Positions 27,873 through 59,954 of a stretch of DNA of 64,000 nucleotides are shown here, one piece after another. A model generated the notes under the pieces. The model was not told the DNA's origin and made no database searches. It saw only the letters and a program-made list of their open reading frames with translations. The DNA is taken from assembly GCA_028150825.1 (NCBI GenBank), contig JAOGIM010000004.1, positions 16,555-80,554 of the forward strand, written 5' to 3'. The DNA is from Paracoccaceae bacterium. Its GTDB lineage: Bacteria > Pseudomonadota > Alphaproteobacteria > Rhodobacterales > Rhodobacteraceae. The position numbers and the translations under genes are program-made. Within the stretch, counting starts at the first letter, position 1; each line of letters begins with the position of its first letter.

Positions 27873-28790
27873 ATGACCCCTTTGCCTCCTACTATTTTGG
27901 CTGTAGAAACCCACAAGCATGGTTTGATCTTTGTCATCTCTGCAGGTTTCCTTTGGTCTACGGTTGGTCTTGGGATTCGTATGATTGAAGATGCTGTAGT
28001 TTGGCAAATTTTGCTCTACCGATCAGTCAGCATGTCGTTATTTCTTTACATAGTTATTCGGTTGCGGTCAGGCGAAAATCCTTTCTTGCAGATACGTCGC
28101 ACTGGCTTTCCCGTTGTCGTCGCGGGACTTGCGCTGGTAGCAGCTTATTCTGGCGGGATCTATGCAATCCAGAATACCTCAGTTGCAAATGCCATGCTAC
28201 TGTTTGCAACCGCGCCGTTCATGGCGGCAGTTCTAGGCTGGTTGGTGTTGCGCGAGCATGTCCGTCTAGCCACATGGATCGCAATTATCGTGGCCTTAGG
28301 CGGCATCTTAATTATGGTATCTGACAAGACAGGTGACGTGGCAGTGCAAGGCAGCCTGGCTGCGCTTGGCTCAGCTCTCGGGTTCGCCGTTTTTACGGTT
28401 GCTTTGCGTTGGGGACGAAGTGGCGATATGCTCCCGTCTGTATTCCTCTCTGGTCTTTTTGCTATCGTGATCACTTTTGCCATTTGTCAGTTCCTGGAAT
28501 TATCGGTTGTCCTAAATTTGCAGGATGGCAGTGTTGCAATGGGAATGGGAGTCTTCCAGGTAGGGGCAGGTTTGATACTTTACACCCTTGGGTCACGCAG
28601 CCTACCAGCTGCCGAACTGGCCATACTTTCCCTTGCTGAGGTTCTACTTGGCCCACTCTGGGTCTGGCTCTTCCTTAATGAGACAGCAAGTCTCAATACG
28701 TTGCTCGGTGGCGCTATTCTGCTTATATCGATTGCTGGAAACGCAGTTTCTGGTAAACGGCGCAAACCACCGCCGATAACTGCACCTTAA
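27873..28790 (+). CDS. DMT-superfamily (EamA) transporter
   Basis: 305 aa, about 10 TM segments arranged as two EamA halves. Confidence 0.85.
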   Translation: MTPLPPTILAVETHKHGLIFVISAGFLWSTVGLGIRMIEDAVVWQILLYRSVSMSLFLYIVIRLRSGENPFLQIRRTGFPVVVAGLALVAAYSGGIYAIQNTSVANAMLLFATAPFMAAVLGWLVLREHVRLATWIAIIVALGGILIMVSDKTGDVAVQGSLAALGSALGFAVFTVALRWGRSGDMLPSVFLSGLFAIVITFAICQFLELSVVLNLQDGSVAMGMGVFQVGAGLILYTLGSRSLPAAELAILSLAEVLLGPLWVWLFLNETASLNTLLGGAILLISIAGNAVSGKRRKPPPITAP

Positions 28791-28995
28791 AGTGCACTTT
28801 GCCCTTAAATGCTCATTTGCACCCTTTTGTGCATTAGATAATTTTAGTAACCTTTGAACCTTGCATTGTGGTGCCCGTCTTCATCGCAATAATAGCAACT
28901 TCCAGATTAGAAATCATCAGAAGTTTGCAAGTTGTTGAAAACTATGGTCTGACCAGAAACATAGAGAATTAGAAGCTCATATAAAGAGATGATTA

Positions 28996-29892
28996 TTGGA
29001 AAAAAAGGACCACATCGACCTTTTTGGAACCACAGCTTTGATAGGCCTTTCAGCATTATTGGGAATAAATCATGTAGTTATCAAAGTTGTCAACTCTGGA
29101 CTTAATCCAGTCTTTTTCGCAGGATTGCGATCGGTGATAGCTTTTGTTTTTCTGGTAATTTACTTTAAATTAACGAATAAAAAGATGCTTTTCTCAAGAG
29201 ATACTATAGCTATATCGATCTTAGCCGGAGTAGTGTTTGCCTTAGAGTTTCTTTTTTTGTTTCTGGCTCTGGACTTTACAACCGTAACACGCAACTCAAT
29301 ACTTTATTATTCCATGCCAATTTGGATCACAGCCTTTGGCCATTTTTTCCTCCCAAACGAAAAGTTGAGCTTTTTCAAAGCTCTCGGATTAATTTTTGCT
29401 TTTGCAGGTGTGGCTCTTGCCCTGTCAGATAATGCGGAGGCACTATCTATTCATAACTTGCAACTAATTGGCGATTTTCTAGCTATAATGGCAGCAATTC
29501 TGTGGGCAATGATAATCTATCTTGCAAAGGGCACTAAATTCAAAGAAGTGACCCCAGAAATGCAGCTCGTCTGGATGTTACTGGTCTCGGGCCCAATTTT
29601 ACTAATAGCCTCACTGTTTTTTGGTGAATTGGTTAGAGATTTTCAAATGGTCCACCTTTGGGGGTTATTGTTTCAAAGCATAGTTGTCGCAGCGGGTGGC
29701 TTTTTATTCTGGCTGTGGCTGGTATCGGTTTACCCGGCATCCAGTGTTGCAAGCTTTTCTTTTTTAAGTCCAATTTTTACAATATTTTTTGGGTGGCTAT
29801 TATTAGATGAAACTTTAGACCTATCTTTTATTCTAGCAGCACTTTTAGTGATTATTGGATTGGTCTGTATCAATAGAAAAATCCAAAAATAA
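28996..29892 (+). CDS. DMT-superfamily (EamA) transporter
   Basis: 298 aa, TTG start, about 10 TM segments with the two-EamA-repeat layout. Confidence 0.8.
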   Translation: MEKKDHIDLFGTTALIGLSALLGINHVVIKVVNSGLNPVFFAGLRSVIAFVFLVIYFKLTNKKMLFSRDTIAISILAGVVFALEFLFLFLALDFTTVTRNSILYYSMPIWITAFGHFFLPNEKLSFFKALGLIFAFAGVALALSDNAEALSIHNLQLIGDFLAIMAAILWAMIIYLAKGTKFKEVTPEMQLVWMLLVSGPILLIASLFFGELVRDFQMVHLWGLLFQSIVVAAGGFLFWLWLVSVYPASSVASFSFLSPIFTIFFGWLLLDETLDLSFILAALLVIIGLVCINRKIQK

Positions 29893-30003
29893 TGCTCACT
29901 GGACTAAAAAATTGGGCATGTGCGGATAAAAAACAGATATCTAGTTTATTTGCAGTTTCGTCTAGCTAAAAATAGACAAAAATTATAACAACAGGTATAG
30001 ATT

Positions 30004-30245
30004 TTATGGATCAACCCAAACAGGCTGCGCTTCAATTTCATCAAAACATGCCTCCGGCCCCTCCATCGTGATGTTTAATGAATGATCATTTATAAGTGAT
30101 TGAACATAGATCTGCTTACAGTTTTTTAATTCACTTTCTACTAACAGTCGTAGTCTAGTCTTTAAACCATTGGTAATGTAGCGCAGTGTTACAAAACCGG
30201 GCTAACCACCCTAGTTTCCCATCAATCTTAAAAGTAACTTGCCTA
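30004..30245 (-). pseudogene. 3' fragment of a YbaK/ProX-like paralog
   Basis: The minus-strand frame reads PGFVTLRYITNGLKTRLRLLVESELKNCKQIYVQSLINDHSLNITMEGPEACFDEIEAQPVWVDP*. It is colinear with the C-terminus of the gene at 23708-24253 (...ELKNCKQIYVHPLVNDRTLGITVE...EPVWVDL*). An upstream TAG and indels are present and the 5' half is missing. Confidence 0.75.
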
Positions 30246-30545
30246 ACACGAGTAAGAGTATGTTTGAAAACAAGTAAATCTTCGTCAAAAAATGTCACAG
30301 TCGCTGAGCTTTGTTTAAGCATTGAACTTCAACATAATATTGTTTCGGTTCCATAATATGTTTTGGTATAAAAATGTCGTCTATTACACAAGCACTATGT
30401 TCAAAATAGCGTTTCAAATTCATTTTGATAAAAAAGCGCTACAATTCAACAGTTCATTATTCGAAACCGACTAAAATTTAAGTTATCGTTTTATATTTAT
30501 TATTGGTAGCAGAGGAGTAGCTTGGAGCCCTGACACGAAGTTTTA

Positions 30546-31424
30546 TTATATTTTTCGACTAATCATTTGTTCTCGATGAAAAGTATAAATGCCTGTACTA
30601 ACTATAATAAGGGTTCCAACTAAAGTTGGTTGATCGGGCCAATCGCCAAACATTAAAATGCCCAGCCCAATTGCTCCGAGCATGGAGGTATATCTAAAAG
30701 GAGAAACAAAGCTAATCTCTCCAGTTCGCATAGCCATTACACTCAATAAAGTAGCGATCAAAACTGCAACAGCCGCACCGATAAGTAGCAACCATGATGC
30801 TGCACTGACAGCATACCATTCTGTACCAATCATCATAATTCCAGCAAACAAAGCACTACCAATAGCTGTCGATAGAACCACGGTGATGGTTGGCACTTCG
30901 TTTGTTAACTTACGAGTAGCAATTTCCCTTACAGTAATGAAAATAATTGCTACCAAAGCTGAAAGCGAATAAACATTAAAACCTTCTAAGCCGGGTCGGA
31001 CAACTATCAGAACACCGAAGAAGCCTACGAGTATGGCACTCCAGCGTCGCCACCCAACGGGTTCTGCTAGAAAAAGTGCAGCAGCCAATGTTACAGCAAG
31101 CGGTAAAGCCTGTAGAATTGCAGTAACATTGGCTAGCGGCATGTACTTAAGGGCTGTCAAAAAAGCGATTGTAGTGCAAATCTCAGCAACTACCCGCACA
31201 AATATAAGGCGTTTGTCTTGATTTGATAGATTGCGGATCGTCACTTTAGAAATCCAACCTATAACCAAAATTGGTGGAACTGTGATTATACTACGCAGGA
31301 ATACTGCCTGGAATAGAGCGATATCAGAAAACAGAAGTTTCATAAAAGCGTCATTAATGACATATGCAAATACGCAACCAGTCATCAGAGCAGCGCCTGT
31401 CATATTGTTGCTAAGACGCATCAA
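30546..31424 (-). CDS. DMT-superfamily (EamA) transporter
   Basis: 292 aa, about 10 TM segments. Confidence 0.85.
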   Translation of the reverse strand: MMRLSNNMTGAALMTGCVFAYVINDAFMKLLFSDIALFQAVFLRSIITVPPILVIGWISKVTIRNLSNQDKRLIFVRVVAEICTTIAFLTALKYMPLANVTAILQALPLAVTLAAALFLAEPVGWRRWSAILVGFFGVLIVVRPGLEGFNVYSLSALVAIIFITVREIATRKLTNEVPTITVVLSTAIGSALFAGIMMIGTEWYAVSAASWLLLIGAAVAVLIATLLSVMAMRTGEISFVSPFRYTSMLGAIGLGILMFGDWPDQPTLVGTLIIVSTGIYTFHREQMISRKI

Positions 31425-31738
31425 AAACCTCTAATTATTTTTGCTTAAAAAGGTAATAGTTAGATTAAGGCTTAACCTACGAAAGTTTTAATCCAAGCGT
31501 ACAAATTATCAGAAATATAATGAGCTTACCAGTTCTATAAAGCAGTAAAGGCTAAAATACACTAATTTGGAAGATAGATGCCGAAATGAATTTCTTTTAA
31601 ACTGCGAATATTTTTAAAAATTAGAAGACGAAATAGGTTTTTCTCTCATCATATAGGTTGTTCAGTTATATTTTTATTTGATGATATCAACTCAAAGTAA
31701 CACTGTGTTGAAAGCAGTTTAAATTTCCAAAAATAAAA

Positions 31739-32650
31739 TCATGTTTTCTTCATGTTCTGATATTCAAATAGACCAATGCCACCAAATACAAAAATCATTG
31801 CAGAAAAGTGGTAAATGCTAAAAACCTCACTTAACATTACCACTGCAATAATAGCAGAAAATATAGGTACCAAATTGGCATATAATCCAGCTGATCCAGA
31901 GCCTATCAGATCAACACCGCGCATAAAAAATATCTGCGAAATAAATGATGGAACGATAGCGATGTAAATAATGATCAACCAGCCCTTAGGCCCGGGCATG
32001 ATTGTTTCGTATACGACACTTTCAATCGCCATTAATGGTATAGTCATCAAGAAAGCAGCTACTGAAAAATACCCCAGCATTACCAGGCCCGATACCTTAG
32101 GTCTGTTTTTCAGTCCAATCGCATAGGCTGCATAAAACAAGCATCCAAAAAACATCAAAAAGTCACCTGTATTAAAGGTTAACAGCATCAGATTTTCAAT
32201 TGAACCTTTAGAAACCATTACAACCACACCGATGAGCGTAAGTATAAGTCCTGTAATTTGCAGCTTATTGACGCGAGAACCAAATATCAAGAATGAGCCC
32301 AGTAGGATCATCCCAGGCATCGTACTCTGCATTATACCCAAGTTCACTGCAGTTGTGCTGTGGGCTGCAGTATAGAAGAGCGCATTAAACATGCTCAGCC
32401 CAAAGCCACCCATTAGAAGGACCCATTTAAGTCTTTTACGAATCACTGGCCATCCCTTGGCCATCTCTTTGCTGTGCAGCGTAAAGATGATGATAACAAC
32501 TATACCCCATCGCAAAAAAATCAGCATCATTGGAGATACTTCATCAACGGCTAGACGACTGGCAACGGCATTGCTGCCCCAACCAAGTGTGGCAAGACAC
32601 AGCAATATGGGAGCATTGGCATAAATCCGAGAAAAGAGAAGAAAATTCAT
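31739..32650 (-). CDS. DMT-superfamily (EamA) transporter
   Basis: 303 aa, about 10 TM segments. Confidence 0.85.
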   Translation of the reverse strand: MNFLLFSRIYANAPILLCLATLGWGSNAVASRLAVDEVSPMMLIFLRWGIVVIIIFTLHSKEMAKGWPVIRKRLKWVLLMGGFGLSMFNALFYTAAHSTTAVNLGIMQSTMPGMILLGSFLIFGSRVNKLQITGLILTLIGVVVMVSKGSIENLMLLTFNTGDFLMFFGCLFYAAYAIGLKNRPKVSGLVMLGYFSVAAFLMTIPLMAIESVVYETIMPGPKGWLIIIYIAIVPSFISQIFFMRGVDLIGSGSAGLYANLVPIFSAIIAVVMLSEVFSIYHFSAMIFVFGGIGLFEYQNMKKT

Positions 32651-32940: not shown

Positions 32941-33849
32941 TCAGACACATTTCTTTACAGATGCCGTCCTTATTTCTTGGGAAAATAATCTCATGCGTCG
33001 ATTAAGTCTTCGTTTATCTGAATGTGCTAAATAGATCAGAAACTCTGGTATTTGGATTTTAGGTAATATGGGAATTAATTCACCTTTTTCAAAAGCATCT
33101 CGTAATATGAAGTCTGGTAACTTGGCGATGCCCTGACCACTAATAGCTGATTTCAATAAAAAATGTCCACTATTGCTATTAAGCGAGGGTGAAAAATCAA
33201 TCACATCGCTTTTTTTAGTATTTTCAGAAATAAACGTCCATCTTCCGCGTTTTGCTGGTCCATAATGGATTAATTTATGTGATTTTAATTGCTTTAAGTT
33301 TTCCGGGTTTCCGTTTTCTTTGATGTACGACTGGGACGCGCAAAGGCAGTGTTTTACGATGCCCAAATCTTTAGTAATTACGCCTTCTCGGATTTTAGGA
33401 CTAATTCCTATCGCAAAGTCATAATTATCAATTTCAAGATCAATAAATCGATCATCAAAATCAACATTAAGCTGAATTTTTGGGTACTTTTTCTGAAAAT
33501 CAACCAATGTAGCACTCAAAAATGAGAGCCCAAAATCGCGAGGGACGGAAATAGCTAGTGGACCAGAAATAGCACTTTGCGTACTTTTAAAGTCTGCGTC
33601 TATTTCTTCGAAGTCTTCTACAGTCGTGATAGCTCGTTGGTATAACTCTCGTCCAATTTCAGTAACGTTCCAATTCCCAGGTGATCGGTTTATCAACTTG
33701 GCTGAATAGCGGTCTTCCAACAATTGCAGTCTTCTACTAACTGCTGATTTTGCAATATTAAGCTTTTCTGCAGCCTTCGAAATACTTCGATATTCTACCA
33801 CAAGTGCAAACAATTTTAAGTCTTCTAGTTGCCCCACAGTGTTCTCCAA
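32941..33849 (-). CDS. LysR-family transcriptional regulator
   Basis: 302 aa. N-terminal HTH LKLFALVVEYRSISKAAEKLNIAKSAVSRRLQLLE. TTG start. Divergent from the pirin-yqjG genes. Confidence 0.9.
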   Translation of the reverse strand: MENTVGQLEDLKLFALVVEYRSISKAAEKLNIAKSAVSRRLQLLEDRYSAKLINRSPGNWNVTEIGRELYQRAITTVEDFEEIDADFKSTQSAISGPLAISVPRDFGLSFLSATLVDFQKKYPKIQLNVDFDDRFIDLEIDNYDFAIGISPKIREGVITKDLGIVKHCLCASQSYIKENGNPENLKQLKSHKLIHYGPAKRGRWTFISENTKKSDVIDFSPSLNSNSGHFLLKSAISGQGIAKLPDFILRDAFEKGELIPILPKIQIPEFLIYLAHSDKRRLNRRMRLFSQEIRTASVKKCV

Positions 33850-35243: not shown

Positions 35244-36227
35244 ATGGGTTTACTGCAAAACGGGAAATGGGTTGATCAGTGGTACGACACCAAAGCAACT
35301 GGTGGGCATTTTGTACGAAAAACACCTCAATTTAGAAATTGGGTTACCATCGATGGTGCTGCGGGACCAAGTGGAGAGGGTGGGTTCAAGGCAGAATCAG
35401 GACGCTATCACCTTTATGTTTCGCTCGCCTGTCCGTGGGCACATCGTACTTTGATATTTCGCGCTCTGAAGGGCTTGGAAGATATGATTTCCGTCTCGAT
35501 AGTTCATTGGTACATGGCTGAGAATGGATGGACGTTTGACGTTGGTAAGGACGTAGCACCCGACACAGTTAATGGTGCACAGTTTATGTATCAAATCTAC
35601 ACCAATGGGAAACCCGACTATTCAGGCCGCGTCACTGTCCCAGTTTTGTGGGATAAAAAAACAAAAGCAATTGTCTCAAATGAATCATCCGAAATTATCC
35701 GGATGTTAAATTCAGCATTTGATGAAATTGGTGCGTTGCATGGTGACTACTACCCTGAACATCTAAGATCCGAAATTGATACGCTTAATGACCGTATATA
35801 CACGACACTAAACAATGGCGTATATCGTTGTGGTTTTGCCACCACACAAGAAGCCTATGAGGCAGCCGTGACCCCGCTATTTGATACGTTGGACTGGCTC
35901 GAAGGTATTCTTTCCTCGAAACGCTTCTTGACAGGCAATAAAATCACAGAAGCAGATTGGCGTCTGTTCACTACGCTGGTTCGGTTTGATGCAGTGTATG
36001 TGGGACATTTTAAATGTAATGTCCGCCGCGTCGCTGACTACCCAAACCTTTCTGGATATTTGTGCGAACTTTACCAGCAACCCGGTATCGCCCAAACGGT
36101 CAATATGGAGCACATAAAAAGGCATTATTACGAAAGCCACGATAGCATAAACCCGTCTAGGGTGGTGCCTAAAGGTCCAGTAATTGATTTCACGGTACTG
36201 CATGGGCGGGAAAAAATCAGGAATTAA
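35244..36227 (+). CDS. yqjG: Xi-class glutathione transferase / glutathionyl-hydroquinone reductase
   Basis: 327 aa. RYHLYVSLACPWAHRT catalytic motif and VPVLWDKKTKAIVSNESSEIIRMLN as in YqjG/ECM4. Confidence 0.9.
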   Translation: MGLLQNGKWVDQWYDTKATGGHFVRKTPQFRNWVTIDGAAGPSGEGGFKAESGRYHLYVSLACPWAHRTLIFRALKGLEDMISVSIVHWYMAENGWTFDVGKDVAPDTVNGAQFMYQIYTNGKPDYSGRVTVPVLWDKKTKAIVSNESSEIIRMLNSAFDEIGALHGDYYPEHLRSEIDTLNDRIYTTLNNGVYRCGFATTQEAYEAAVTPLFDTLDWLEGILSSKRFLTGNKITEADWRLFTTLVRFDAVYVGHFKCNVRRVADYPNLSGYLCELYQQPGIAQTVNMEHIKRHYYESHDSINPSRVVPKGPVIDFTVLHGREKIRN

Positions 36228-37980: not shown

Positions 37981-38034
37981 CCTGGATGAACAGCTGGTGC
38001 GTTATTTGGAAAAGAAAATTGTAGGAGATATTTC

Positions 38035-39071
38035 ATGACTGGATCGAAAGATAATGCAGTGGAAGAAAACAAATTTCTCGCAACGGCGCTGCGCGCTAAA
38101 GGTGAGTTTGTGCGCGGTGTCAGTGGCTTTCATGGCACTTTGGGTTTGGGTGATTTTCCCGCAGTGCCAGGCCGATATCATCTTTATGTTGCCCTTAATT
38201 GCCCTTGGTACCATTGAATTACCTTGGCTCAAAATATCTTTGGTTTGCAAAAGAGTATTTCAATGGATGTGGTATTTCCAAACAGAGCCCAAGAGCATAA
38301 CCCAGAAGGGCCAAACAATTGGCAATTTGCCCCAGAACGCATTGCAATGTTGACTGGCGCGCCTTTGCCTGAATGTGCGACTGAAACGGCAACTAGGCAA
38401 GCTTTTCGCTTTGTACGCAACATTCATGATGCGGAGGGCTCCAAAGAGCGTTCAGTGCCAATTTTGTACGATAGACTGTCTCGCTGGATCGTCTCTAATG
38501 AAAGTGCTGAGATTGTACGCATGTTAAACAGGTCGGCTGGCCCGCTCGGGATCCAATATTCAAATAAAATGCGTCACAATCTCTATCCTGCGGACAATAA
38601 TCTCAGAGAAGACATCAACGCTCTAAACAAGCTTATTTACATTGCCATTAATAATGGAGCGTATAAAGCTGGGTTTTCTTCAGACAAGGCGATTTACGAA
38701 ACGGCTTATCGAAAATATTTTGATGCGCTTGCCAAACTCGAGTCTCTTTTGACCGATGGGCTTCTTTTTTAACTGGTGATAAATTTACAGAAGCTGATTT
38801 AAGGCTATTTCCAACGCTTTATCGGCTTGATCCTGTCTGCTAAGTTCGGATGAAACTCAATGACGCAAAAACATTTGATTATCTTCATTTATGGCAATGG
38901 ATTTGCCGAGTTTATGAATTGCCTGGCGTACCCGAAAGCGGATCGCTTGATCACTGTCGACAGGAATATTTTGGCTGGTTCTGGAATAATGTTATTCCAC
39001 TTGGTCCAAGCCTTCCAATGCCCTACCCACAGGCCTATAAGCATCCAGATTTAGCTAAAAATGTGAAGTAA
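38035..39071 (+). pseudogene. Inactivated yqjG paralog (Xi-class GST)
   Basis: Good RBS (AGGAG). RYHLYVALNCPWYH is followed by TGA at 38215-38217, where the paralog has Arg. The same frame resumes (...SVPILYDRLSRWIVSNESAEIVRMLN...). A frameshift occurs in the T-run near 38765-38772. An in-frame TAA (38840-38842) lies inside the RLDPVC*VRMKLN segment. Confidence 0.85.
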
Positions 39072-52470: not shown

Positions 52471-53706
52471 ATGACCAAGATATCCGAAATGCCCGCTGTC
52501 GCCCGACACTTTATATCTAACCTTGACCTAACAGTCACAAGCCATCCTTCATGGACACAGCCAGTTCCAGCCAATGAGCGACGGGTATCCATTGTTTCGA
52601 CAGCCGCTGTGTCACGACGCGGAGACAAACCATTTTCTTGGCTTGCAAAGGACTCTCGCACCTTTCACAAAACTGACCGTGACTTGGTGATGACACATGT
52701 CGCTGTTGAGTTTGACCGATCTGCATGGCAGCAAGACCTAAACACAATTATACCACTAGACCGGCTTGAAGAAATGGCTGCAGACAGCGAAATCGACTCA
52801 GTTGCGGAAGAGCACTATTCTTTCATGGGCGCAGCAGATCCTGTGACGATGGAAAAATCAGCACGGGCAGTCGCAGCGAACATGAAGCGGGAAGGTGTTA
52901 ATACGGTTTTCCTCATACCTATATGACCGTTTTGCACGCGCGCCGTGTGCGGGCTGGCTCATTTCTTTGAATCAGAAGGTTTATCGACGGTTCTCGTGGG
53001 CTTTGTGCGTGAGCATTTGGAAGCAATGCGTCCTCCTCGTTCCTTGTTTTTAGATTTCCCAATGGGTCGGGGCATGGGCAAGCCAAACAACCCAAGATTT
53101 CAGAAAAAGGTAATCCGTGCAGCGTTTGAACTGCTCGACACAAACGGTGGTCCCGTAATCGATGATTTTCCCGAAATCATCCCAGTAAGGGCAGGGCGCA
53201 TGGGCTATGCTCTGCCACCTGAGCTAGTTTTGAGTGTCGATGACGTCGGCAATTTGGATGTTGTTCTGGCTGAGGTTAGGAGCGAAATGGAGGCTCTGCG
53301 ACCAGATTATGACGTGGCGGTTGCAGCGCGAGGGCGCACCACGGTTGGCGCCAGCGGGCTTGCGGTTGAAGAGTTGGCACCCTTCGTGGCTGGATTTTTA
53401 GGTGGTGAGATCCCCCAAAGCCCCAGAAAGGGCATGGCTGCGATTCCGCTGCTGAAACTCGTGGTTGAAGATCTTGAGGCCTACTACACTGAGACGCGCA
53501 CCCATCGTGACAGAATTGACGACCTGGAGCTGATGGGCGAATGGTTCTGGGAAGAAAGTAAAGTCGGAAGACTTCTGTTGTTGCTCGAAGCTGTCTCTGT
53601 CGCTTCTGATAACAAAGTGATGCTTCAGATTGTCGAGATGTCTCTAATGGCGCCGCGTTTCTGGTCCGAGGGTCCATTGCCGGGAACCTCGGCGGCCGGT
53701 TGGTGA
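52471..53706 (+). CDS. GrdB-like selenoprotein (Sec encoded by TGA at 52924-52926)
   Basis: Track ORFs 52471-52926 and 52945-53706 share a frame and are separated only by TGA plus six sense codons. The joined product reads ...REGVNTVFLIPI-U-PFCTRAVCGLAHFFESEG.... A hairpin follows the TGA, and selD, tRNA-Sec, selB and selA are adjacent. Confidence 0.8.
52931..52953 (+). promoter_or_regulatory. Candidate bacterial SECIS hairpin
   Basis: Stem GCACGC (52934-52939) pairs with GUGUGC (52945-52950), including one G.U pair, around loop GCGCC. Three flanking U.G pairs can extend it. The stem starts 8 nt after the TGA. Confidence 0.55.
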
Positions 53707-53931: not shown

Positions 53932-54999
53932 ATGTCCTCCATACCTTCTCTGACCAGTCTGGCAAAATCGGCGGGCTGCGCTGCTAAGATTGCGCAAGGT
54001 GATCTCACCAAAGCTTTGGCCCATTTACCCAAGTCGGATGATCCTGATTTGATGGTGGATCACGCAGGATCTGATGATGCTGCGGTTTACCGCCTTTCAG
54101 CTGAGCTAGCACTAGTAGAAACTGTCGATATTTTCCCACCGATTGTTGATGACCCATTTGATTATGGACGGATCGCGGCCACCAATGCGCTTAGTGATAT
54201 CTATGCTATGGGTGCAAAGCCAATTAGTGCGCTCAGCTTTGTTGGTTGGCCGGTCGAAGTGTTAGGCGTGGATCGGCTTGGTGCCGTTTTAAAAGGTGCG
54301 GCCAGCATTTGTAACCAAGCTGGAATTGCGATTGCCGGTGGCCATTCAATTGTCGATAGTGAGCCAAAATTTGGTCTGTTTGTGACCGGCTTGGTGCATC
54401 CAGATAAAATCATCGATAACAGTGGCGCGAGGGCGGGTGATTATTTGGTCTTAACCAAAAAAATTGGTACAGGCGTGTTAACTACGGCAGCCAAACGTGG
54501 ACACTTGCCAGCTAGTAGATTGGACGAAGCCGTTGCGTCGATGACCACTCTCAATAGCGCAGCAGCGTTGGTGATGACGGCGCAGAATGTACACGCTGCG
54601 ACAGATGTGACCGGTTTCGGATTACTTGGTCATCTTGGTAATATGCTGAAAGCTTCTTCAATGGCCGCTCAAAAACCACTTGGAGCCAATCTGTCCTACT
54701 CAAAAATACCCCTCTTTGAGGGTGTAGAGACGCTCCTAGATCAAGGTCTTTGCCCTCTAGGCACTAAGCGGAATCTCGAAACTGCAGCGTCGCTAACAAC
54801 ATTTTCTGCCGATATCAGTTATAACCATCAATTGTTATTGGCAGATGCGCAGACCTCTGGCGGCTTACTAATGGCAGTACCCAAAGCTCGTCTTGAAGAC
54901 CTTTTGACCGAGCTTAAAGTGAATATGGTTACATCCTGTGCCGTGATTGGCCAAGTCGTACAGTCTAACCAATCATCTCACATTCAAGTCGAACTCTAG
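53932..54999 (+). CDS. selD: Selenide, water dikinase (selenophosphate synthetase), Cys form
   Basis: 355 aa. N-terminal SAGCAAKI corresponds to the GAGCGCKI active-site loop. AIR-synthase-like fold pattern. Confidence 0.9.
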   Translation: MSSIPSLTSLAKSAGCAAKIAQGDLTKALAHLPKSDDPDLMVDHAGSDDAAVYRLSAELALVETVDIFPPIVDDPFDYGRIAATNALSDIYAMGAKPISALSFVGWPVEVLGVDRLGAVLKGAASICNQAGIAIAGGHSIVDSEPKFGLFVTGLVHPDKIIDNSGARAGDYLVLTKKIGTGVLTTAAKRGHLPASRLDEAVASMTTLNSAAALVMTAQNVHAATDVTGFGLLGHLGNMLKASSMAAQKPLGANLSYSKIPLFEGVETLLDQGLCPLGTKRNLETAASLTTFSADISYNHQLLLADAQTSGGLLMAVPKARLEDLLTELKVNMVTSCAVIGQVVQSNQSSHIQVEL

Positions 55000-55077: not shown

Positions 55078-55173
55078 TGGCGAAAGAGCGTGGGAGTCGA
55101 ACCCACCAGAGACGTGGTACGCCCCTCACTAGATTTGAAGTCTAGGCGCCCCACCAGGGTGCGATCCTCTTCC
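55078..55173 (-). tRNA. selC: tRNA-Sec (anticodon UCA)
   Basis: The reverse complement reads GGAAGAGG-AU-CGCACCCUGGUGGGGCG-C-CUAGA-CUUCAAA-UCUAG-[long variable arm UGAGGGGCGUACCACGUCUCUG]-GUGGGUUCGACUCCCAC-GCUCUUUC-G-CCA. It has an extended acceptor stem, the UCA anticodon in a CUUCAAA loop, a long extra arm and an encoded CCA. Confidence 0.9.
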
Positions 55174-55191: not shown

Positions 55192-57108
55192 TCACAAAAT
55201 ATTTGAGATGGGCCGCTGTACGCGACGAAATTCACCCACACGTGTAGTAAAGCCCACCTGGTCAAAATATTCCAGCACAGCTATAACAAAATTTCTGCCC
55301 ATGTTTACCTCGTCTCGGAAATCGATTGTTGTGAACAGCCCATCTGTCGACTTGGCCGCCAATTTCTGTGCACTGGCTTTAAGTTTGGCCACTAGAATTG
55401 AAGGTACATAGCGGTTTTTCTTTACCAAAACAATATCGCCAAGCTTTACACCAATTTTTAATGTCTTTTCGAGTATCGAAGCTTCAATCCCAATTTTCTG
55501 GGCTGCCTGATAAAGACCAGGAGGAGCGCCGCAATCTGGGGCTAGAACCAGTGTTGCCTGTGCCAGAATGAATTTTTCTTGCTCTGAAATATAGATATTG
55601 TGCGAGGGTAAATGGAACCGGTTTCTACGCGCGCACAATCGCTTTTCAGAAATCAATATTGTTAGTGCTAGGTTCAGGGTGCCTTCGTCAAAAAAGATAT
55701 CAAGTAGAGCTTGTAGGTCTTTAATACTTGCTCCAAAAAATTTTGGGCTACTTTTATGGAAAGTGGCAAGACTGGTTAGAATTAGGTTCATTAAACCGCG
55801 CCACCTAGCTTCACAGAAAATTCGTTCGTTTGGAGGCTCTCCCACCCGCCGCAACCCCAGCGAAACGATGAGTGCATCGATTTGCTCGGCCAGGAGGTTG
55901 TGCGATATTGAAAACGGCTTTAAAGGCACGCCAGTTTCACTCTGCGTTGCCAATGCTTGAAGTACGTCTGCTGTAGTTTCTCCACGCATGGCTTTTAAGA
56001 TCGCAATCCGGCTGGGTCTTGCGCGACCACGTTTTGGCGAGAAAGGATCGATTACGTACCCACCTGCAATTGTACGTTGTGCGGATTGATCACGAAGAAC
56101 AAAACGGTCTCCGCTCAGGGCGAATGTATCACGAGGTAGGACCAGTTGGGCCAAGCCGCTTGCGCCTGGTAAAATGTTTCCACCTGACAAAACTGCAACC
56201 CTTGCTGGCAGATGATCGGATCCAATATGAAAATGTGTTGGAGACCAGTGTTTCAAAGAACTAGTTTCAGTTTTTAATACATGTAAATTAACATCTATGC
56301 GTCTTGTCGGAGCGCAGAGATCGGAATGCGTGAGCCATGTGCCACGCCTTATAGATTTCTCACTTACGCCCCGCCCGACGATATTCAGGGCGCAGCGTTC
56401 ACCAGCCTTTGCTTTGGCACGTATTTGGTTGTGAACTCTAATCTCACGCACACGGAGAGTTGATCCGTCGGATAAAAGTGTCAAACTTTCAGCATTATAA
56501 ACGGTTCCCGAAACTACCATTCCAGTCACTACTAAACCGACCCCTTTCAGAGTGAACGCCCGATCGATGGTCATTCGGAAATGACCACTTGCCACCGTAG
56601 GTTTGATAGTCTTTGCACGTAGATTCAGCGCTTCTCTAAGCGCTTCCATGCCGATGCTTTTAGGGGCGCAAACAGGGTACAGAGCGTGTTCCTGATACCC
56701 TTCTTTTTCAAGGAAATTTGTGACCTGTATATACACCTCTGAGAGGTCATTTGATGCTACACGATCAATCTTAGTCAGTGCTACCAGAATGTTTTTAATG
56801 CCAAGCAGGCCAAGTATAGCAAGATGTTCCCGTGTTTGTGGCATCACACCATCATCAGCGGCTATTACCAATAGGCCCAGATCAATCCCGGCTAGACCTG
56901 CCACCATATTGCGAATAAATTTCTCATGCCCAGGGACATCTACAAACCCAAGAATCTCACCGTCGGGCAGAGTGTTATAAGCAAACCCGAGATCCACTGT
57001 CAGCCCACGCGCTTTTTCTTCTGGCAGGCGATCCGTATTGATACCAGTCAATGCTTTTATTAGTTCGGTCTTGCCGTGGTCCACATGTCCTGCTGTTGCA
57101 ACGATCAT
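55192..57108 (-). CDS. selB: Selenocysteine-specific elongation factor
   Basis: 638 aa. [30 protein letters not shown] and a long C-terminal winged-helix extension. Its stop lies 18 nt before tRNA-Sec. Confidence 0.9.
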
Positions 57109-58499
57109 GCGACTTTTAAGCTATGCAGATTTTCAACAAAGCCCTTTTCGTCTTCGAGGCATCTTAGATCAAACCACAGCGCATCATCAGAAATGCGCCC
57201 AATCACGGGAATTGGTAGTTCCCGAAAGGCCTTAGAAAGCCTGTTCAGACTATTACCGGAGCGACGAAGATCAGGCCGTGTTATCTTCAGCGCAGCGCTT
57301 TGTAATCTGTTGATTGGTAATGCCCCACTGCCCACCTGGCTATGGGTTTGCGCAACTGAAACCTCACATTGATTTAAGCGGTCTTTAAGTATTGTGACAA
57401 GTCGGTTTGCCAACTGTTCAATTTCTGCCAGGTCGCGGGTAAGCAAGCGTAACGTAGGTAGCTCCTCAACCAAGCGCTTGCTGTCAGTATACAAACGCAG
57501 AACGGCCTGAAGAGCGGCTAAGGTGACTTTGTCAGGCCGCATGGCTCGTGTCATAGGGTTGCGTTTAAGTTTTTCGATCAAATCGCGGCGACCCGCAATT
57601 ATGCCTGCCTGTGGTCCGCCAAGAAGCTTGTCACCGCTAAAAGTCACCAGATCAGCACCAAATTCCAATGCATCCATGACGGTTGTTTCATAAGGCAGAT
57701 TATAAGGCTGCAGGTCAATTAGAGTACCGCTGCCCAGATCCGTGACAAAGGGTAAATTGTGACGATGCGCAATCCTAGAAAGTTCTCTTTCTAAAACACT
57801 TTTGGTGAACCCTTTGATCTCAAAATTACTGGTGTGAACCTTCATTATTAATGCAGTTCTAGGGCTAATTGCTGTCTCAAAATCTGCTTCGTTTGTCCGG
57901 TTGGTTGTGCCAACCTCCACCAGTTTGCAACTTGCGCGGGCCATGATGTCCGGCATACGGAAGGCTCCACCAATCTCGATAAGCTCACCCCGTGAAACAA
58001 GGACTTCCTTGCGCCGCGCCAAACTGTTGAGCGTCAGCAACACCGCTGCCGCGTTATTATTAACAACGAGCGCACCCTCGGCCCCTGTAAGCTGACACAA
58101 CAAAGCCTCGGCATGTTTATGTCGATCACCACGCTTGCCTGTTTCCAAATTGAATTCCACGGTACTCGCGCCACGCGCAACATCCACCATCGCCTGTATG
58201 GCAGATTCGGGTAAGGTGGCGCGGCCGAGATTTGTATGCAGCACGGTACCGGTTAGATTGTAAACTGGTCGGATCGATGGCAGCGAAATGCGTTCTATCT
58301 CTTGTAAAACTGATTGAACCAGCGCAGCCATATTAGTAGCTTTGCCAGCCACCACACTCTGGCGTACATTCATAAAGACATTCTGTGCGCAGTGTGTGAC
58401 CAACGCCAAACCATACTTACGCACCAGTTCCTGCACAAATGGCGTATTCACAAGACGGTCCACTGAAGGAAGTTGTTTGGGTGTATCGATGATTGTCAT
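57105..58499 (-). CDS. selA: L-seryl-tRNA(Sec) selenium transferase
   Basis: LPSVDRLV near the N-terminus and the PLP-lysine motif [15 protein letters not shown]. Start placed at MTIIDTPKQ (58499); the ORF track allows TTG at 58541. ATGA-type overlap with selB. Confidence 0.9.
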
Positions 58500-58537
58500 C
58501 TCTATTCCATTGGGCAAGCTGCGATTCAAATTTATTT

Positions 58538-58897
58538 TCAAGCTATCATATCTTGATAAGCCGCTTCGCTCATCAAGCTGTCCAGAACTGTCATATCATC
58601 CAGTTTGATCTTAAAAAATCAGCACCGACCAGTTGGATCTTTGTCCACCTGATTTGACCCATCAACAAACGCTTCGTTGACCGCGACAATCTCTCCATCG
58701 TACATGGCCGAAATCTCACTAGCAGCCTTAACGCACTAGATCTCAACAATTTTGTCTCCCCGAGTTAAAAGGGTTCCTGGTTCTGTAAGTTCTAAAAATA
58801 CGACATCGCCCAACTGTTCAGTTGCAAATTCCGTAATGCCTAAAAAAACGCCATTTCCATCGACCCTTAGCCAGTCATGTTCTTTGGTGTATCTCAT
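58538..58897 (-). pseudogene. Glycine-cleavage H-protein-like gene with two in-frame stops
   Basis: MRYTKEHDWLRV...GITEFATEQLGDVVFLELTEPG...GDKIVEI-TAG-CVKAASEISAMYDGEIVAVNEAF...DPTGRC-TGA-FFKIKLDD...*. It is colinear with GcvH (119 codons) and keeps the lipoyl-lysine context VKAAS. TAG (58736-58738) replaces the conserved Glu; TGA (58619-58621) replaces the conserved Trp. Confidence 0.75.
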
Positions 58898-59060: not shown

Positions 59061-59954
59061 ATGAAGATGAATTTACCTTTGCTATCCAACTCGATGAGAT
59101 TTGATATTGACGTGTTGAAAACATTTATCGCTGTTGCCGACACCGGTTCAGTAAAATTGGCGTCAGAGCGTGTTGCGCGTTCATCTGCGGCCGTATCTAT
59201 GCAGATGAAGAAACTTGAACAGCTCCTTGGCGCCCCAGTCTTTCAACGCTCTGCAGGTGCTATGCGCATATCGGATGCAGGCGAACGTTTGATGCCTCAT
59301 GCGCACCTAATAATCCAAGCGCACGATACCGCCATTGTAGAGCTGCAAAGCCTAAATATTGAGGGTCTAGTGCGGGTGGGTTTATGTCTGGAAAATGCCG
59401 AAACATGCATGCCTGAGATATTGTCCGGCTTTGCCAAGGTTCACAAACGTGTGACTGTTGAAGTAGTGTCAGGCGACGCTCAGGATTTGGCTGTGATGCT
59501 GGCGAACGATGAATTGGATCTAGCAATTCTAACAATTGGCGGCGGTGCGCCCCCTGAAGAGAGAGATAGACTTCTCCACGAGCAACCTCTGGTTTGGGCC
59601 ACGCATAAAAACGGACAACGCACTAAGGAGCGTCCATTGCGCTTAGCAGTTGCTCCTGTTGGTTGCCCATGGCGTCTTGCAGCGCTTGATGCTTTAAAAC
59701 GCTCAGGGATTCCCTACCAAATCGCCTATCTTTCGAATGTCTCAGAATCACAGCTTGCCGCTGTTCGAGCAGATCTGGCAGTCGCAGCTTTACCACTCAG
59801 TCGCATTACCAGTGCTACCCAGCCCATATGCATAAATAAGGATCTACCCAAACTTCCTTACACACAGATAGTGCTTAGAACCTCGGTAAATCCAAGCAAA
59901 AAAGCCAAAACGCTTGCAGCACAAGTGTTATCGGCTTTTAATCGACCTTCTTAA
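59061..59954 (+). CDS. LysR-family transcriptional regulator
   Basis: 297 aa. HTH segment LKTFIAVADTGSVKLASERVARSSAAVSMQMKKLE. Divergent from the gcvH-like/sel operon. Confidence 0.85.
   Translation: MKMNLPLLSNSMRFDIDVLKTFIAVADTGSVKLASERVARSSAAVSMQMKKLEQLLGAPVFQRSAGAMRISDAGERLMPHAHLIIQAHDTAIVELQSLNIEGLVRVGLCLENAETCMPEILSGFAKVHKRVTVEVVSGDAQDLAVMLANDELDLAILTIGGGAPPEERDRLLHEQPLVWATHKNGQRTKERPLRLAVAPVGCPWRLAALDALKRSGIPYQIAYLSNVSESQLAAVRADLAVAALPLSRITSATQPICINKDLPKLPYTQIVLRTSVNPSKKAKTLAAQVLSAFNRPS

What the first reader, a model, noticed from the sequence alone, without database searches (positions are those of the whole stretch)
52471..53706. A GrdB-like selenoprotein hidden by an in-frame UGA, outside any glycine-reductase context
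The two track ORFs are one reading frame interrupted only by TGA (52924-52926). The read-through product of 411 aa has U in the context FLIPI-U-PFCTRAVC. The flanking blocks (IPLDRLEEMAA...HYSFMGAADP...REGVNTVFL-x3-U-xx-CTR) parallel what I recall around the Sec of clostridial glycine/sarcosine/betaine reductase protein B, which has Sec in a UxxCxxC-type motif after ...GVDAVIL.... A GC-rich hairpin starts 8 nt after the UGA, as expected for a bacterial SECIS. The complete Sec-insertion machinery lies immediately downstream. The architecture nevertheless differs from GrdB: about 150 aa precede the Sec and about 260 aa follow it. No grdA, grdC/D/E, prd or thioredoxin-system genes are present, and the neighbours are an OYE flavoenzyme and aerobic-type genes. 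The protein may therefore be a reductase of unknown substrate that uses a selenol/thiol pair independently of the Stickland-type complexes. The gene also looks more GC-rich than its surroundings.
Basis: partly seen in the sequence, partly recalled or inferred. Interest (0 to 1): 0.85.

Follow-up and report, generated by a model that had tools for sequence, protein, structure and literature searches.

The report
Marine PrdB-like selenoprotein beside Sec machinery
This is a real selenocysteine-containing enzyme gene of a family common in ocean bacteria, already catalogued since 2005 as "proline reductase PrdB", although that name probably does not describe what it does.

Summary
Bases 52471-53706 are one 411-codon gene whose only interruption is TGA 52924-26. 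The TGA is kept in all 72 related genome loci and in six distant relatives. The 18 bases after Cys155 are almost invariant even at synonymous sites, which fits a SECIS. selD, tRNA-Sec, selB and selA follow directly.

The protein is closer to PrdB than to GrdB. It has a PrdB-type core with Sec152-x-x-Cys155, followed by a roughly 175-residue helical C-terminal domain with no Pfam family and no significant PDB fold match.

It is not new as a selenoprotein. The same sequences, with U at this position, appear in the supplements of the Sargasso Sea (2005) and GOS (2008) selenoproteome papers as "Proline reductase PrdB".

The label looks wrong. The protein scores 90 bits against a 300-bit cut-off. 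No PrdA/GrdE, GrdA, GrdC/D or thioredoxin genes occur in the window, and no conserved partner appears in about 80 loci.

Two features appear undescribed. The gene sits next to selA/selB in 48 of 72 loci, and a lipoyl-carrier (GcvH-like) gene recurs nearby (16 of 72 loci); in this window it is a pseudogene.

Substrate and mechanism are inferred only. This is a new member of a known predicted family, of moderate interest.

The parts
52471..53706 (+). PrdB-like selenoprotein gene: 411 codons including UGA152, then the stop codon
   Evidence: One frame, conserved length, and the same codon-position diversity on both sides of the TGA.
52924..52926 (+). In-frame TGA read as selenocysteine (U152)
   Evidence: TGA in 72 of 72 genome loci and 6 of 6 distant relatives. 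The only Cys form seen (TGC) is on a frameshifted long-read contig.
52933..52935 (+). Cys155 codon, the invariant partner in the U-x-x-C motif (inferred resolving cysteine)
   Evidence: Invariant in all sequences. Its role is inferred from PrdB/GrdB chemistry.
52931..52958 (+). SECIS-like element inside the coding sequence. The core ACGCGCGCCGUG lies at 52936-52947. The best-supported register is a 17-nt hairpin at 52938-52954 with loop CGUGU.
   Evidence: Near-zero synonymous variation at codons 156-161. The same core occurs in relatives at 35-40% identity. One compensatory G-C to U-A change; 15 of 500 shuffles reach the observed values. The rival MFE register shows only pair-breaking variants.
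53176..53703 (+). Family-specific C-terminal domain (about residues 236-411), with a confidently modelled helical part at about residues 250-395; conserved RGRTTVGAS, KLVVEDLxAYYTE and WFWEE motifs
   Evidence: No Pfam or NCBIfam match. Conserved in 966 representative clusters. AF2 pLDDT mostly above 90 for about residues 250-390. No PDB fold match with E below 0.001.
53932..54999 (+). selD, selenophosphate synthetase, Cys type (SAGCAAK)
   Evidence: TIGR00476 at 373 bits. N-terminal sequence read.
55078..55173 (-). tRNA-Sec (selC), anticodon UCA
   Evidence: ARAGORN. Rfam RF01852 at 69.1 bits.
55192..57108 (-). selB, the Sec-specific elongation factor
   Evidence: Pfam GTP_EFTU, Beta-barrel_SelB and SelB-wing_3.
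57105..58541 (-). selA, selenocysteine synthase
   Evidence: Pfam SelA at 521 bits.
58538..58897 (-). gcvH-like (lipoyl carrier) pseudogene at the head of the selA operon. TAG 58736-58738 replaces Glu of ESVK; TGA 58619-58621 replaces Trp.
   Evidence: Intact, with the lipoyl-lysine motif, in Roseovarius-type and SAR116 loci.
59061..59954 (+). LysR-type regulator, divergent from the selA operon
   Evidence: Pfam HTH_1 plus LysR_substrate. Homologues at 62-83% identity lie in the same position in 20 loci.

Best explanation
What it is (shown). Bases 52471-53706 encode one 411-residue selenoprotein of the PrdB/GrdB superfamily. It belongs to the abundant marine family that selenoproteome surveys list as 'proline reductase PrdB'. 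UGA152 is conserved and is followed by a nucleotide-invariant element within 52931-52958. selD, tRNA-Sec, selB and selA are adjacent, so all the parts needed for Sec insertion are present.

How Sec is inserted (inferred). SelB bound to Sec-tRNA(Sec) recognises that element as a bacterial SECIS and inserts Sec at UGA152.

How the enzyme works (inferred from homology). In the model, Sec152 and Cys155 lie between a beta-strand (143-148) and the following helix (154-168) of a PrdB-type alpha/beta core. As in PrdB and GrdB, the selenolate is the nucleophile. Cys155 resolves the selenium adduct into a selenenylsulfide. A dithiol then re-reduces that bond; candidates are thioredoxin or the lipoyl arm of the GcvH-like protein found in the same gene module in other genomes.

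Partners and substrate (inferred, weakest step). No PrdA/GrdE-type pyruvoyl subunit, GrdA or GrdC/D is linked in any locus, and distant relatives are solitary genes. It therefore most likely acts without a dedicated Stickland partner, with its own helical C-terminal domain contributing to substrate binding or oligomerisation. The substrate is not D-proline in a PrdAB complex. A small marine metabolite with a good leaving group next to a carboxylate, such as a betaine-type compound, is a guess.

Gene module. The gene and the sel genes appear to move and persist together as a unit.
For: Single gene and Sec codon.

SECIS: synonymous-site invariance; the same core in relatives at 35-40% identity; one compensatory pair.

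Sec machinery.

Superfamily and layout: PrdB model over residues 11-222 at E = 1.4e-25; Pfam GRDB at 27.1 bits against a threshold of 22.

Same family as the published marine 'PrdB': with abundance figures.

Almost always Sec: 966 representative clusters and 2248 hits are almost all fragments that start just after the TGA.

No Stickland partners: window scan; Pfam-annotated loci; clustering of neighbours in 72 loci, where only sel genes, LysR and the GcvH-like gene recur.

Linkage to sel genes: 48 of 72 loci, in at least four arrangements.

Structure: beta-strand, then U-x-x-C, then helix; confident helical C-terminal domain.

Higher GC than the surrounding genes, compatible with lateral acquisition.
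Against: There is no experimental evidence of selenium incorporation or of any activity.

The hairpin is not more stable than shuffled sequence. Covariation rests on one compensatory change, and the register is ambiguous.

Absence of PrdA was tested only within about 10 kb of each gene and within this 64-kb window, not genome-wide.

The N-terminal 120 residues were modelled poorly, because fragments from the two halves could not be aligned together. Active-site geometry is therefore unknown.

The GcvH-like gene is a pseudogene here and in three other loci, so it cannot be an obligatory partner.

Neighbouring genes differ between lineages and give no consistent clue to the substrate.
Confidence: 0.7

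Rival explanations
1. It is the true PrdB subunit of a D-proline reductase, as the literature and JGI annotation call it. PrdA and the accessory genes would be encoded elsewhere in the genome.
For: PrdB is the best-scoring curated model, and it covers almost the whole profile. The Sec position and U-x-x-C motif match PrdB. Public names say PrdB.
Against: The score is 90 bits against an equivalog cut-off of 300. There is an extra C-terminal domain of about 175 aa. No Gly_reductase (PrdA/GrdE) or PrdC-type gene was found in the window or in any Pfam-annotated locus, whereas the selenoprotein review describes prdB-prdC as a typical operon. The hosts are aerobic marine roseobacters, SAR116 and gammaproteobacteria.
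Confidence: 0.07
2. It serves selenium metabolism itself rather than being an ordinary client of the Sec machinery. For example, it might release or reduce a selenium compound to feed SelD. That would explain why it stays beside selD, selA, selB and selC.
For: It is adjacent to sel genes in 48 of 72 loci despite rearrangements. In roseobacter loci it sits directly beside selD or an oxidoreductase-SelD fusion.
Against: All six distant relatives sampled (Desulfarculus and unnamed metagenome contigs) are solitary genes with no sel genes nearby. Four loci with at least 5 kb on both sides lack sel genes. Linkage of a Sec trait with one client gene is equally explained by co-transfer. Requiring Sec in order to supply Sec is circular, although Sec-type SelD enzymes do exist.
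Confidence: 0.12
3. It is a general thiol/selenol-disulfide oxidoreductase in which U-x-x-C acts like a thioredoxin-type redox motif, with no carbon-heteroatom bond cleavage.
For: The selenoproteome papers class the U-x-x-C motif among thiol-dependent redox motifs (their Table 3). The gene is solitary in most lineages.
Against: Homology is to the PrdB/GrdB catalytic subunits, not to the thioredoxin fold. The large, conserved, family-specific domain and many invariant polar residues suggest a defined substrate.
Confidence: 0.1
4. The TGA is a true stop. On this reading there are two separate genes, or a pseudogene.
For: Gene callers split the gene in nearly every public record.
Against: The TGA, frame and length are conserved down to 35% identity. 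Selection is identical on both sides of the TGA. There is a nucleotide-invariant element after the TGA and a full Sec machinery adjacent. The downstream 'ORF' starts at a GTG inside a conserved helix.
Confidence: 0.01

Closest known systems
Marine 'Proline reductase PrdB' predicted selenoprotein family (Zhang, Fomenko & Gladyshev 2005, Sargasso Sea; Zhang & Gladyshev 2008, GOS)
   Same: It is the same family. The supplements hold sequences such as ...NTVFLIPIuPFCTRAVCGLAHYFESEGL... running through to ...PRFWSEGPLPGTSGSGW, with U at the TGA. It has the UxxC motif, is marine, and is far more often Sec than Cys: 42 Sec to 1 Cys in the Sargasso Sea and 235 to 110 in GOS.
   Different: Nothing differs in sequence. 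Those papers only count it and call it proline reductase. In the passages I retrieved by term search, they do not mention the extra domain, the lack of PrdA, the linkage to sel genes or the GcvH-like neighbour.
PrdB, the 26-kDa selenoprotein subunit of clostridial D-proline reductase (TIGR04483; Kabisch et al. 1999)
   Same: Homologous over almost the whole PrdB profile (3-218 of 238). Sec lies at about residue 152 in U-x-x-C (motif).
   Different: It scores 90 bits against a 300-bit cut-off. It has about 175 extra C-terminal residues. No PrdA or PrdC-type genes are nearby. The hosts are aerobic marine proteobacteria.
GrdB / GrdF / GrdH, substrate-specific selenoprotein B of the glycine, sarcosine and betaine reductases (PF07355, TIGR01917/8, NF040794/5)
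   Same: The region around the Sec is homologous (residues ~76-179). Pfam GRDB is above its threshold. From my memory, the C-T-R after U-x-x also occurs in GrdB (UGTCTRC).
   Different: It lacks the ~270-residue N-terminal part of GrdB. It scores 38 bits or less against cut-offs of 65-800. The third Cys is not conserved. There are no grdA, grdC, grdD or grdE genes and no trx genes.

Membership tests
Marine 'PrdB' predicted selenoprotein family (Sargasso/GOS) | Sequence identity with the published members, including U at the TGA | tested here: met
   The motif FCTRAV and the full C-terminal sequence were found in the supplements of PMC1088965 and PMC2398784.
Marine 'PrdB' predicted selenoprotein family (Sargasso/GOS) | UxxC motif with Sec predominant over Cys | tested here: met
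   TGA in 72 of 72 genome loci and 6 of 6 distant relatives. One doubtful Cys form.
D-proline reductase PrdB (TIGR04483 equivalog) | HMM score at or above the curated cut-off of 300 bits | tested here: not met
   90.1 bits, E = 1.4e-25.
D-proline reductase PrdB (TIGR04483 equivalog) | Sec/Cys in U-x-x-C at about residue 151 | tested here: met
   U152-P-F-C155.
D-proline reductase PrdB (TIGR04483 equivalog) | Encoded with PrdA (pyruvoyl proprotein, PF09338) and PrdC/D/E/F | tested here: not met
   None in the 64-kb window, in the Pfam-annotated loci, or among recurrent neighbours in 72 loci. The rest of each genome was not searched.
D-proline reductase PrdB (TIGR04483 equivalog) | Size of about 240 aa with no further domain | tested here: not met
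   411 aa. Residues ~223-411 lie outside the profile.
D-proline reductase PrdB (TIGR04483 equivalog) | D-proline reductase activity | not testable with these tools
   Needs an enzyme assay.
Glycine/sarcosine/betaine reductase selenoprotein B (PF07355; TIGR01918 subfamily) | Pfam GRDB domain above the gathering score | tested here: met
   27.1 bits against 22, but only profile positions 275-344 of 347.
Glycine/sarcosine/betaine reductase selenoprotein B (PF07355; TIGR01918 subfamily) | NCBIfam subfamily cut-off of 65.45 bits and full-length architecture of about 430 aa with Sec near residue 350 | tested here: not met
   29.2 bits. Only residues 77-174 align to profile positions 270-368. Sec is at residue 152 of 411.
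Glycine/sarcosine/betaine reductase selenoprotein B (PF07355; TIGR01918 subfamily) | Genomic association with grdA, grdC/D, grdE and trxA/B | tested here: not met
   None in the window or the related loci (same calls as for PrdA).
Bacterial selenoprotein gene (Sec decoding) | In-frame UGA conserved among homologues, or aligned with Cys | tested here: met
Bacterial selenoprotein gene (Sec decoding) | SECIS hairpin shortly downstream of the UGA, with a conserved G in the apical loop | tested here: inconclusive
   There is strong nucleotide conservation and a 17-nt hairpin starting 11 nt after the UGA with loop CGUGN. Only one compensatory change supports it, and its stability is not above shuffles. 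No dedicated bSECIS predictor or Rfam model was available.
Bacterial selenoprotein gene (Sec decoding) | selA, selB, selC and selD present in the genome | tested here: met
   All four lie within 5 kb downstream.
Bacterial selenoprotein gene (Sec decoding) | Selenium incorporated into the protein | not testable with these tools
   Needs 75Se labelling or mass spectrometry.

The most novel reading that the evidence does not exclude
The marine 'PrdB' is not a proline reductase subunit. It would be a self-sufficient selenoenzyme whose own C-terminal domain replaces the PrdA/GrdE partner. It would reductively cleave an abundant marine metabolite, for example a betaine-type osmolyte, using a lipoyl-protein or thioredoxin dithiol. 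It would also be the client that keeps the whole Sec-insertion apparatus, carried with it as a transferable module, in aerobic roseobacters, SAR116 and marine gammaproteobacteria.
Probability: 0.2. Interest if true: 0.75.

Novelty: new member of a known kind. Interest (0 to 1): 0.45.

Why it matters
Surveys put this family at about 6% of all selenoprotein genes in the surface ocean, and it was the third most abundant selenoprotein family in the Sargasso Sea. Its biochemical label nevertheless rests only on distant homology to a clostridial fermentation enzyme whose obligatory partner is missing here.

If the label is wrong, one of the main uses of selenium by marine bacteria has an unknown function.

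The tight linkage to selA, selB, selC and selD suggests that this one enzyme may explain why these aerobes keep the Sec machinery at all.

Public annotation splits the gene into a truncated 'PrdB/selenoprotein B' fragment and a 'hypothetical protein', so the full protein is missing from most protein databases. Cultured carriers exist, such as Roseovarius aestuarii KCTC 22174 and strain EL129, so the question can be tested.

Tried and rejected
Cys-containing full-length homologues. Three word-index searches and one exhaustive HMMER search returned almost only post-TGA or pre-TGA fragments. The one Cys form (P0252/L078) is on a frameshifted long-read contig and is unreliable. A 368-aa hit (P0267) lacks the residues around the Sec site and seems to be a gene call that skips the TGA. 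P0171 reads TGA as W.

Sequence search of the PDB gave no relative.

Single-sequence AlphaFold gave pLDDT 34 and was unusable.

A joint alignment of N-terminal and C-terminal fragments was misaligned by MAFFT in every combination tried, including X-padding. The second model therefore has alignment depth only for residues 159-411.

Foldseek against the PDB gave a best E-value of 0.16, so there is no usable match.

Rfam has no bacterial SECIS model and nothing matched.

RNAalifold and pair counts found no covariation within the close family, because the core is invariant.

Hairpin stability against shuffles was not significant.

The promoter and terminator scan gave nothing above the shuffle expectation.

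A conserved partner gene was sought by clustering all neighbouring ORFs. Beyond the sel genes, LysR and the GcvH-like gene, nothing recurs in more than about 18 of 72 loci.

Full report
**Observation.** The two ORFs 52471-52926 and 52945-53706 share one frame and are separated only by TGA 52924-52926. Read-through gives 411 residues with U152 in FLIPI-U-PFCTRAVC. An in-frame TAG directly precedes the ATG, so 52471 is the first possible start. ARAGORN and Rfam both find a tRNA-Sec at 55078-55173(-). Pfam and NCBIfam identify selD (53932-54999), selB (55192-57108, -) and selA (57105-58541, -). SelD is the Cys type.

**Is it one gene with a conserved Sec codon?** A scan of one genome per species returned 72 loci. 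They come from Rhodobacteraceae (including the cultured Roseovarius aestuarii KCTC 22174 and strain EL129), SAR116/Puniceispirillales, Granulosicoccaceae and other Gammaproteobacteria, and one Chloroflexota MAG, at 55-91% identity. Every locus has TGA at the aligned codon, and almost all keep the 411-codon length. In 48 unique full-length genes, diversity at codon positions 1, 2 and 3 is 0.20, 0.12 and 0.58 both upstream and downstream of the TGA. Both halves are therefore coding, in the same frame, under the same constraint.

An exhaustive HMMER search with the downstream ORF found 966 representative clusters. Nearly all are fragments of 240-255 aa that begin at query residues 1-3, which means gene callers were stopped by the same TGA even at 30-40% identity. 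Six such distant relatives read at the DNA level all have TGA followed by P-x-C-T-R-A-V-G. The single Cys form (TGC) lies on a long-read contig full of frameshifts.

**SECIS.** The hairpin after the UGA folds at -20.1 kcal/mol, but GC-rich shuffles do nearly as well (z = -1.6 and -0.7). The real evidence is conservation. Codons 156-161 (ACG CGC GCC GTG TGC GGG) have essentially zero synonymous entropy in 48 genes, against a gene-wide mean of 1.46 bits. Codons 154-161 form the lowest 8-codon window in the gene. The same core, ACGCGYGCCGTG, is present in the relatives at 35-40% identity.

The GC-repeat allows several pairing registers.
- In the MFE register (positions 11-17 with 21-27, counting from the U of UGA), every observed variant breaks a pair.
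- In the RNAalifold register (15-20 with 26-31, loop CGUGN; window 52938-52954), variation falls in the loop or gives G-U pairs. There is one compensatory G-C to U-A change, and 15 of 500 shuffles reach the observed values.
- This second hairpin is 17 nt long and starts 11 nt after the UGA. From my memory, that is the geometry of the minimal E. coli fdhF SECIS.

I treat a SECIS as strongly indicated and its exact structure as unsettled. Rfam has no matching model.

**What protein is it?** Pfam GRDB matches only residues 80-148 (27 bits). The best curated model is PrdB (TIGR04483). It aligns residues 11-222 to profile positions 3-218 of 238, at 90 bits and E = 1.4e-25, far below the 300-bit equivalog cut-off. 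The GrdH, GrdF, GrdB and 'various_sel_PB' models match only residues ~76-179 at 38 bits or less. The layout is therefore PrdB-like, with Sec near residue 152 and U-x-x-C, plus an extra region of about 175-190 residues that matches no family.

Only U152 and C155 are invariant. C160 is Ser or Gly elsewhere. The C-terminal region is conserved across the whole family, with invariant or near-invariant E272, Y280, R289, T290, T291, G293, S295, D334, Y339, E341, W358, F359 and W360.

AlphaFold with 142 aligned C-terminal fragments gives several results.
- A confident helical domain (pLDDT mostly above 90 for about residues 250-390).
- A moderately confident alternating beta/alpha core for residues 123-235, with U152 lying between strand 143-148 and helix 154-168.
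- A poor N-terminus, which had no alignment depth.

Foldseek against the PDB found nothing below E = 0.16, and sequence search of the PDB found nothing.

**Already known?** Yes, as a predicted selenoprotein. The supplement of the Sargasso Sea selenoproteome paper lists 'Proline reductase PrdB' entries that read ...NTVFLIPIuPFCTRAVCGLAHYFESEGL... and ...VFLVPVuPFCTRAVSVLAHFFESYGF...PRFWSEGPLPGTSGSGW. The GOS supplement holds dozens more. The surveys report the following figures.

| Survey | Figure for 'PrdB' / proline reductase |
|---|---|
| Sargasso Sea | Third most abundant selenoprotein family; 42 Sec, 1 Cys |
| GOS | 235 Sec, 110 Cys |
| Tara Oceans | 6.4% of marine selenoprotein genes |

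In the passages I retrieved by term search, these papers and later reviews simply equate it with clostridial D-proline reductase. Public annotation calls the 151-aa fragment 'D-proline reductase (dithiol) PrdB' or 'glycine/sarcosine/betaine reductase selenoprotein B family protein', and calls the 253-aa fragment hypothetical. A text search for PrdB-like or GrdB-like proteins found nothing on this family.

**Context.**
- The window holds no PrdA/GrdE, GrdA, GrdC/D or thioredoxin-system gene among the ORFs scanned. Its other genes are ordinary aerobic heterotroph functions: a multicopper oxidase, a globin, ABC transporters, and sugar and organic-acid enzymes.
- No Gly_reductase family appears in any Pfam-annotated locus.
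- Clustering all neighbouring ORFs in the 72 loci shows that only selB, selA, selD (or an oxidoreductase-SelD fusion), a LysR regulator and a GcvH-like protein recur.
- selA or selB lies within the flanks in 48 of 72 loci. Only four loci with at least 5 kb on both sides lack them. tRNA-Sec was found in 37 of 51 loci scanned.
- The arrangement differs between lineages (downstream convergent, upstream same strand, upstream opposite strand), so the linkage has been kept through rearrangements.
- Other flanking genes differ between lineages. SAR116 loci have Rieske oxygenases, MR_MLE enzymes and a DAO-GCV_T enzyme. A Granulosicoccaceae locus has, judged from their sequences, a choline-dehydrogenase-like GMC oxidoreductase and a betaine-type ABC transporter. 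This window has sugar-catabolic genes. Those genes do not define the function.
- All six distant relatives sampled are solitary genes.
- The gene has the highest GC in its neighbourhood (0.524, against 0.442 +/- 0.027), and the sel genes are also above the mean (0.47-0.49). This fits acquisition as a module.

**GcvH-like gene.** A lipoyl-carrier paralogue with the ESVKAAS lipoylation motif lies directly downstream of the selenoprotein gene in SAR116 loci, and at the head of the selA operon in Roseovarius-type loci. In this window the orthologous position (58538-58897, -) carries TAG in place of the Glu of ESVK and TGA in place of a conserved Trp, so it is a pseudogene. It is also decayed in L027, L033 and L040.

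NCBI names PrdB's enzyme 'D-proline reductase (dithiol)', and from memory the EC reaction for that enzyme is written with dihydrolipoate. A lipoyl protein is therefore an attractive reductant for the selenenylsulfide. It is evidently dispensable.

**Mechanism, with status of each step.**
- Shown: a single conserved reading frame, a conserved UGA, a nucleotide-constrained element after it, complete adjacent Sec machinery, PrdB/GrdB-superfamily homology, an invariant U-x-x-C, an extra conserved helical domain, and no linked Stickland partners.
- Inferred from established PrdB/GrdB chemistry (Kabisch et al. 1999, as summarised): Sec152 acts as the nucleophile, Cys155 forms a Se-S bond, and a dithiol regenerates the enzyme.
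- Speculative: the enzyme is self-sufficient, the C-terminal domain supplies what PrdA/GrdE supplies elsewhere, and the substrate is a marine small molecule with a good leaving group.

**Rivals.** I considered four other readings: a true PrdB with an unlinked PrdA, a role in selenium supply to SelD, a generic redox protein, and two genes or a pseudogene. They are weighed in the rival section. The last is effectively excluded.

**Verdict.** This is a new member of a known predicted family. What remains interesting is that the accepted functional label fails its own membership tests, and that the gene is the near-constant companion of the Sec machinery in abundant marine aerobes. Both points can be tested in cultured strains.

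Noticed in passing
window 58538-58897 (-): A gcvH-like lipoyl-carrier gene at the head of the selA-selB-tRNA-Sec operon is a pseudogene here. TAG 58736-58738 replaces the Glu of ESVK, and TGA 58619-58621 replaces a conserved Trp. Its stop overlaps the selA start (TTGA). It is intact in Roseovarius-type loci (e.g. L066 17023-17382) and lies directly after the selenoprotein gene in SAR116 loci (L001 10831-11193). It is also decayed in L027, L033 and L040.
   Followed up: partly
window 37990-38772 (+), TGA at 38215-38217: A second ORF pair is joined by an in-frame TGA (...LNCPWYH-TGA-ITLAQNIFGLQ...). From memory it resembles the CPWxHR motif of glutathionyl-hydroquinone reductase (YqjG/GST Xi), with the TGA where Arg (CGA) is expected. 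It is more likely a nonsense-mutated paralogue of the GST-like gene at 35244-36227 than a selenoprotein. No homologue comparison was run.
   Followed up: partly
window 52921-52923 and the aligned codon in 48 related genes: The codon just before the UGA is ATA in all 34 sequences that have Ile there, while Ile149 uses all three Ile codons. The other sequences have Val (GTC, GTT or GTA). This suggests a constraint on the context 5' of the Sec codon.
   Followed up: no
L010, L011, L014-L016, L020, L066 (e.g. L020 1770-4004, -): In Roseovarius- and Yoonia-type loci the plain selD is replaced by a protein of about 744 aa. It has an N-terminal pyridine-nucleotide-disulfide-oxidoreductase-like part and a SelD-like C-terminal part (36-40% identical to the window SelD), convergent with the selenoprotein gene.
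   Followed up: no
L004 6558-7823; L081 and L084 flanks: IS605 OrfB/TnpB-type and DDE transposase genes lie within a few kb of the selenoprotein gene in several loci. This is compatible with mobility of the gene or module.
   Followed up: no
L061, L062, L070: Some MAG copies are damaged. L061 has an internal duplication or frameshift. L062 has an additional in-frame stop (DRTAW*QDL). L070 is truncated after about residue 280. These could be assembly errors or decaying copies.
   Followed up: no
window 27873-32650: Four EamA-family transporter genes lie in a row (two on each strand), next to a LysR regulator (32941-33849). This is an unusual local concentration of one transporter family.
   Followed up: no
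supplement of PMC1088965 (AACY01424071): The published marine 'PrdB' set is mixed. A second, shorter type (…LLVPSuGLCNQTVG…) has a different motif and a different C-terminus from the family studied here.
   Followed up: no
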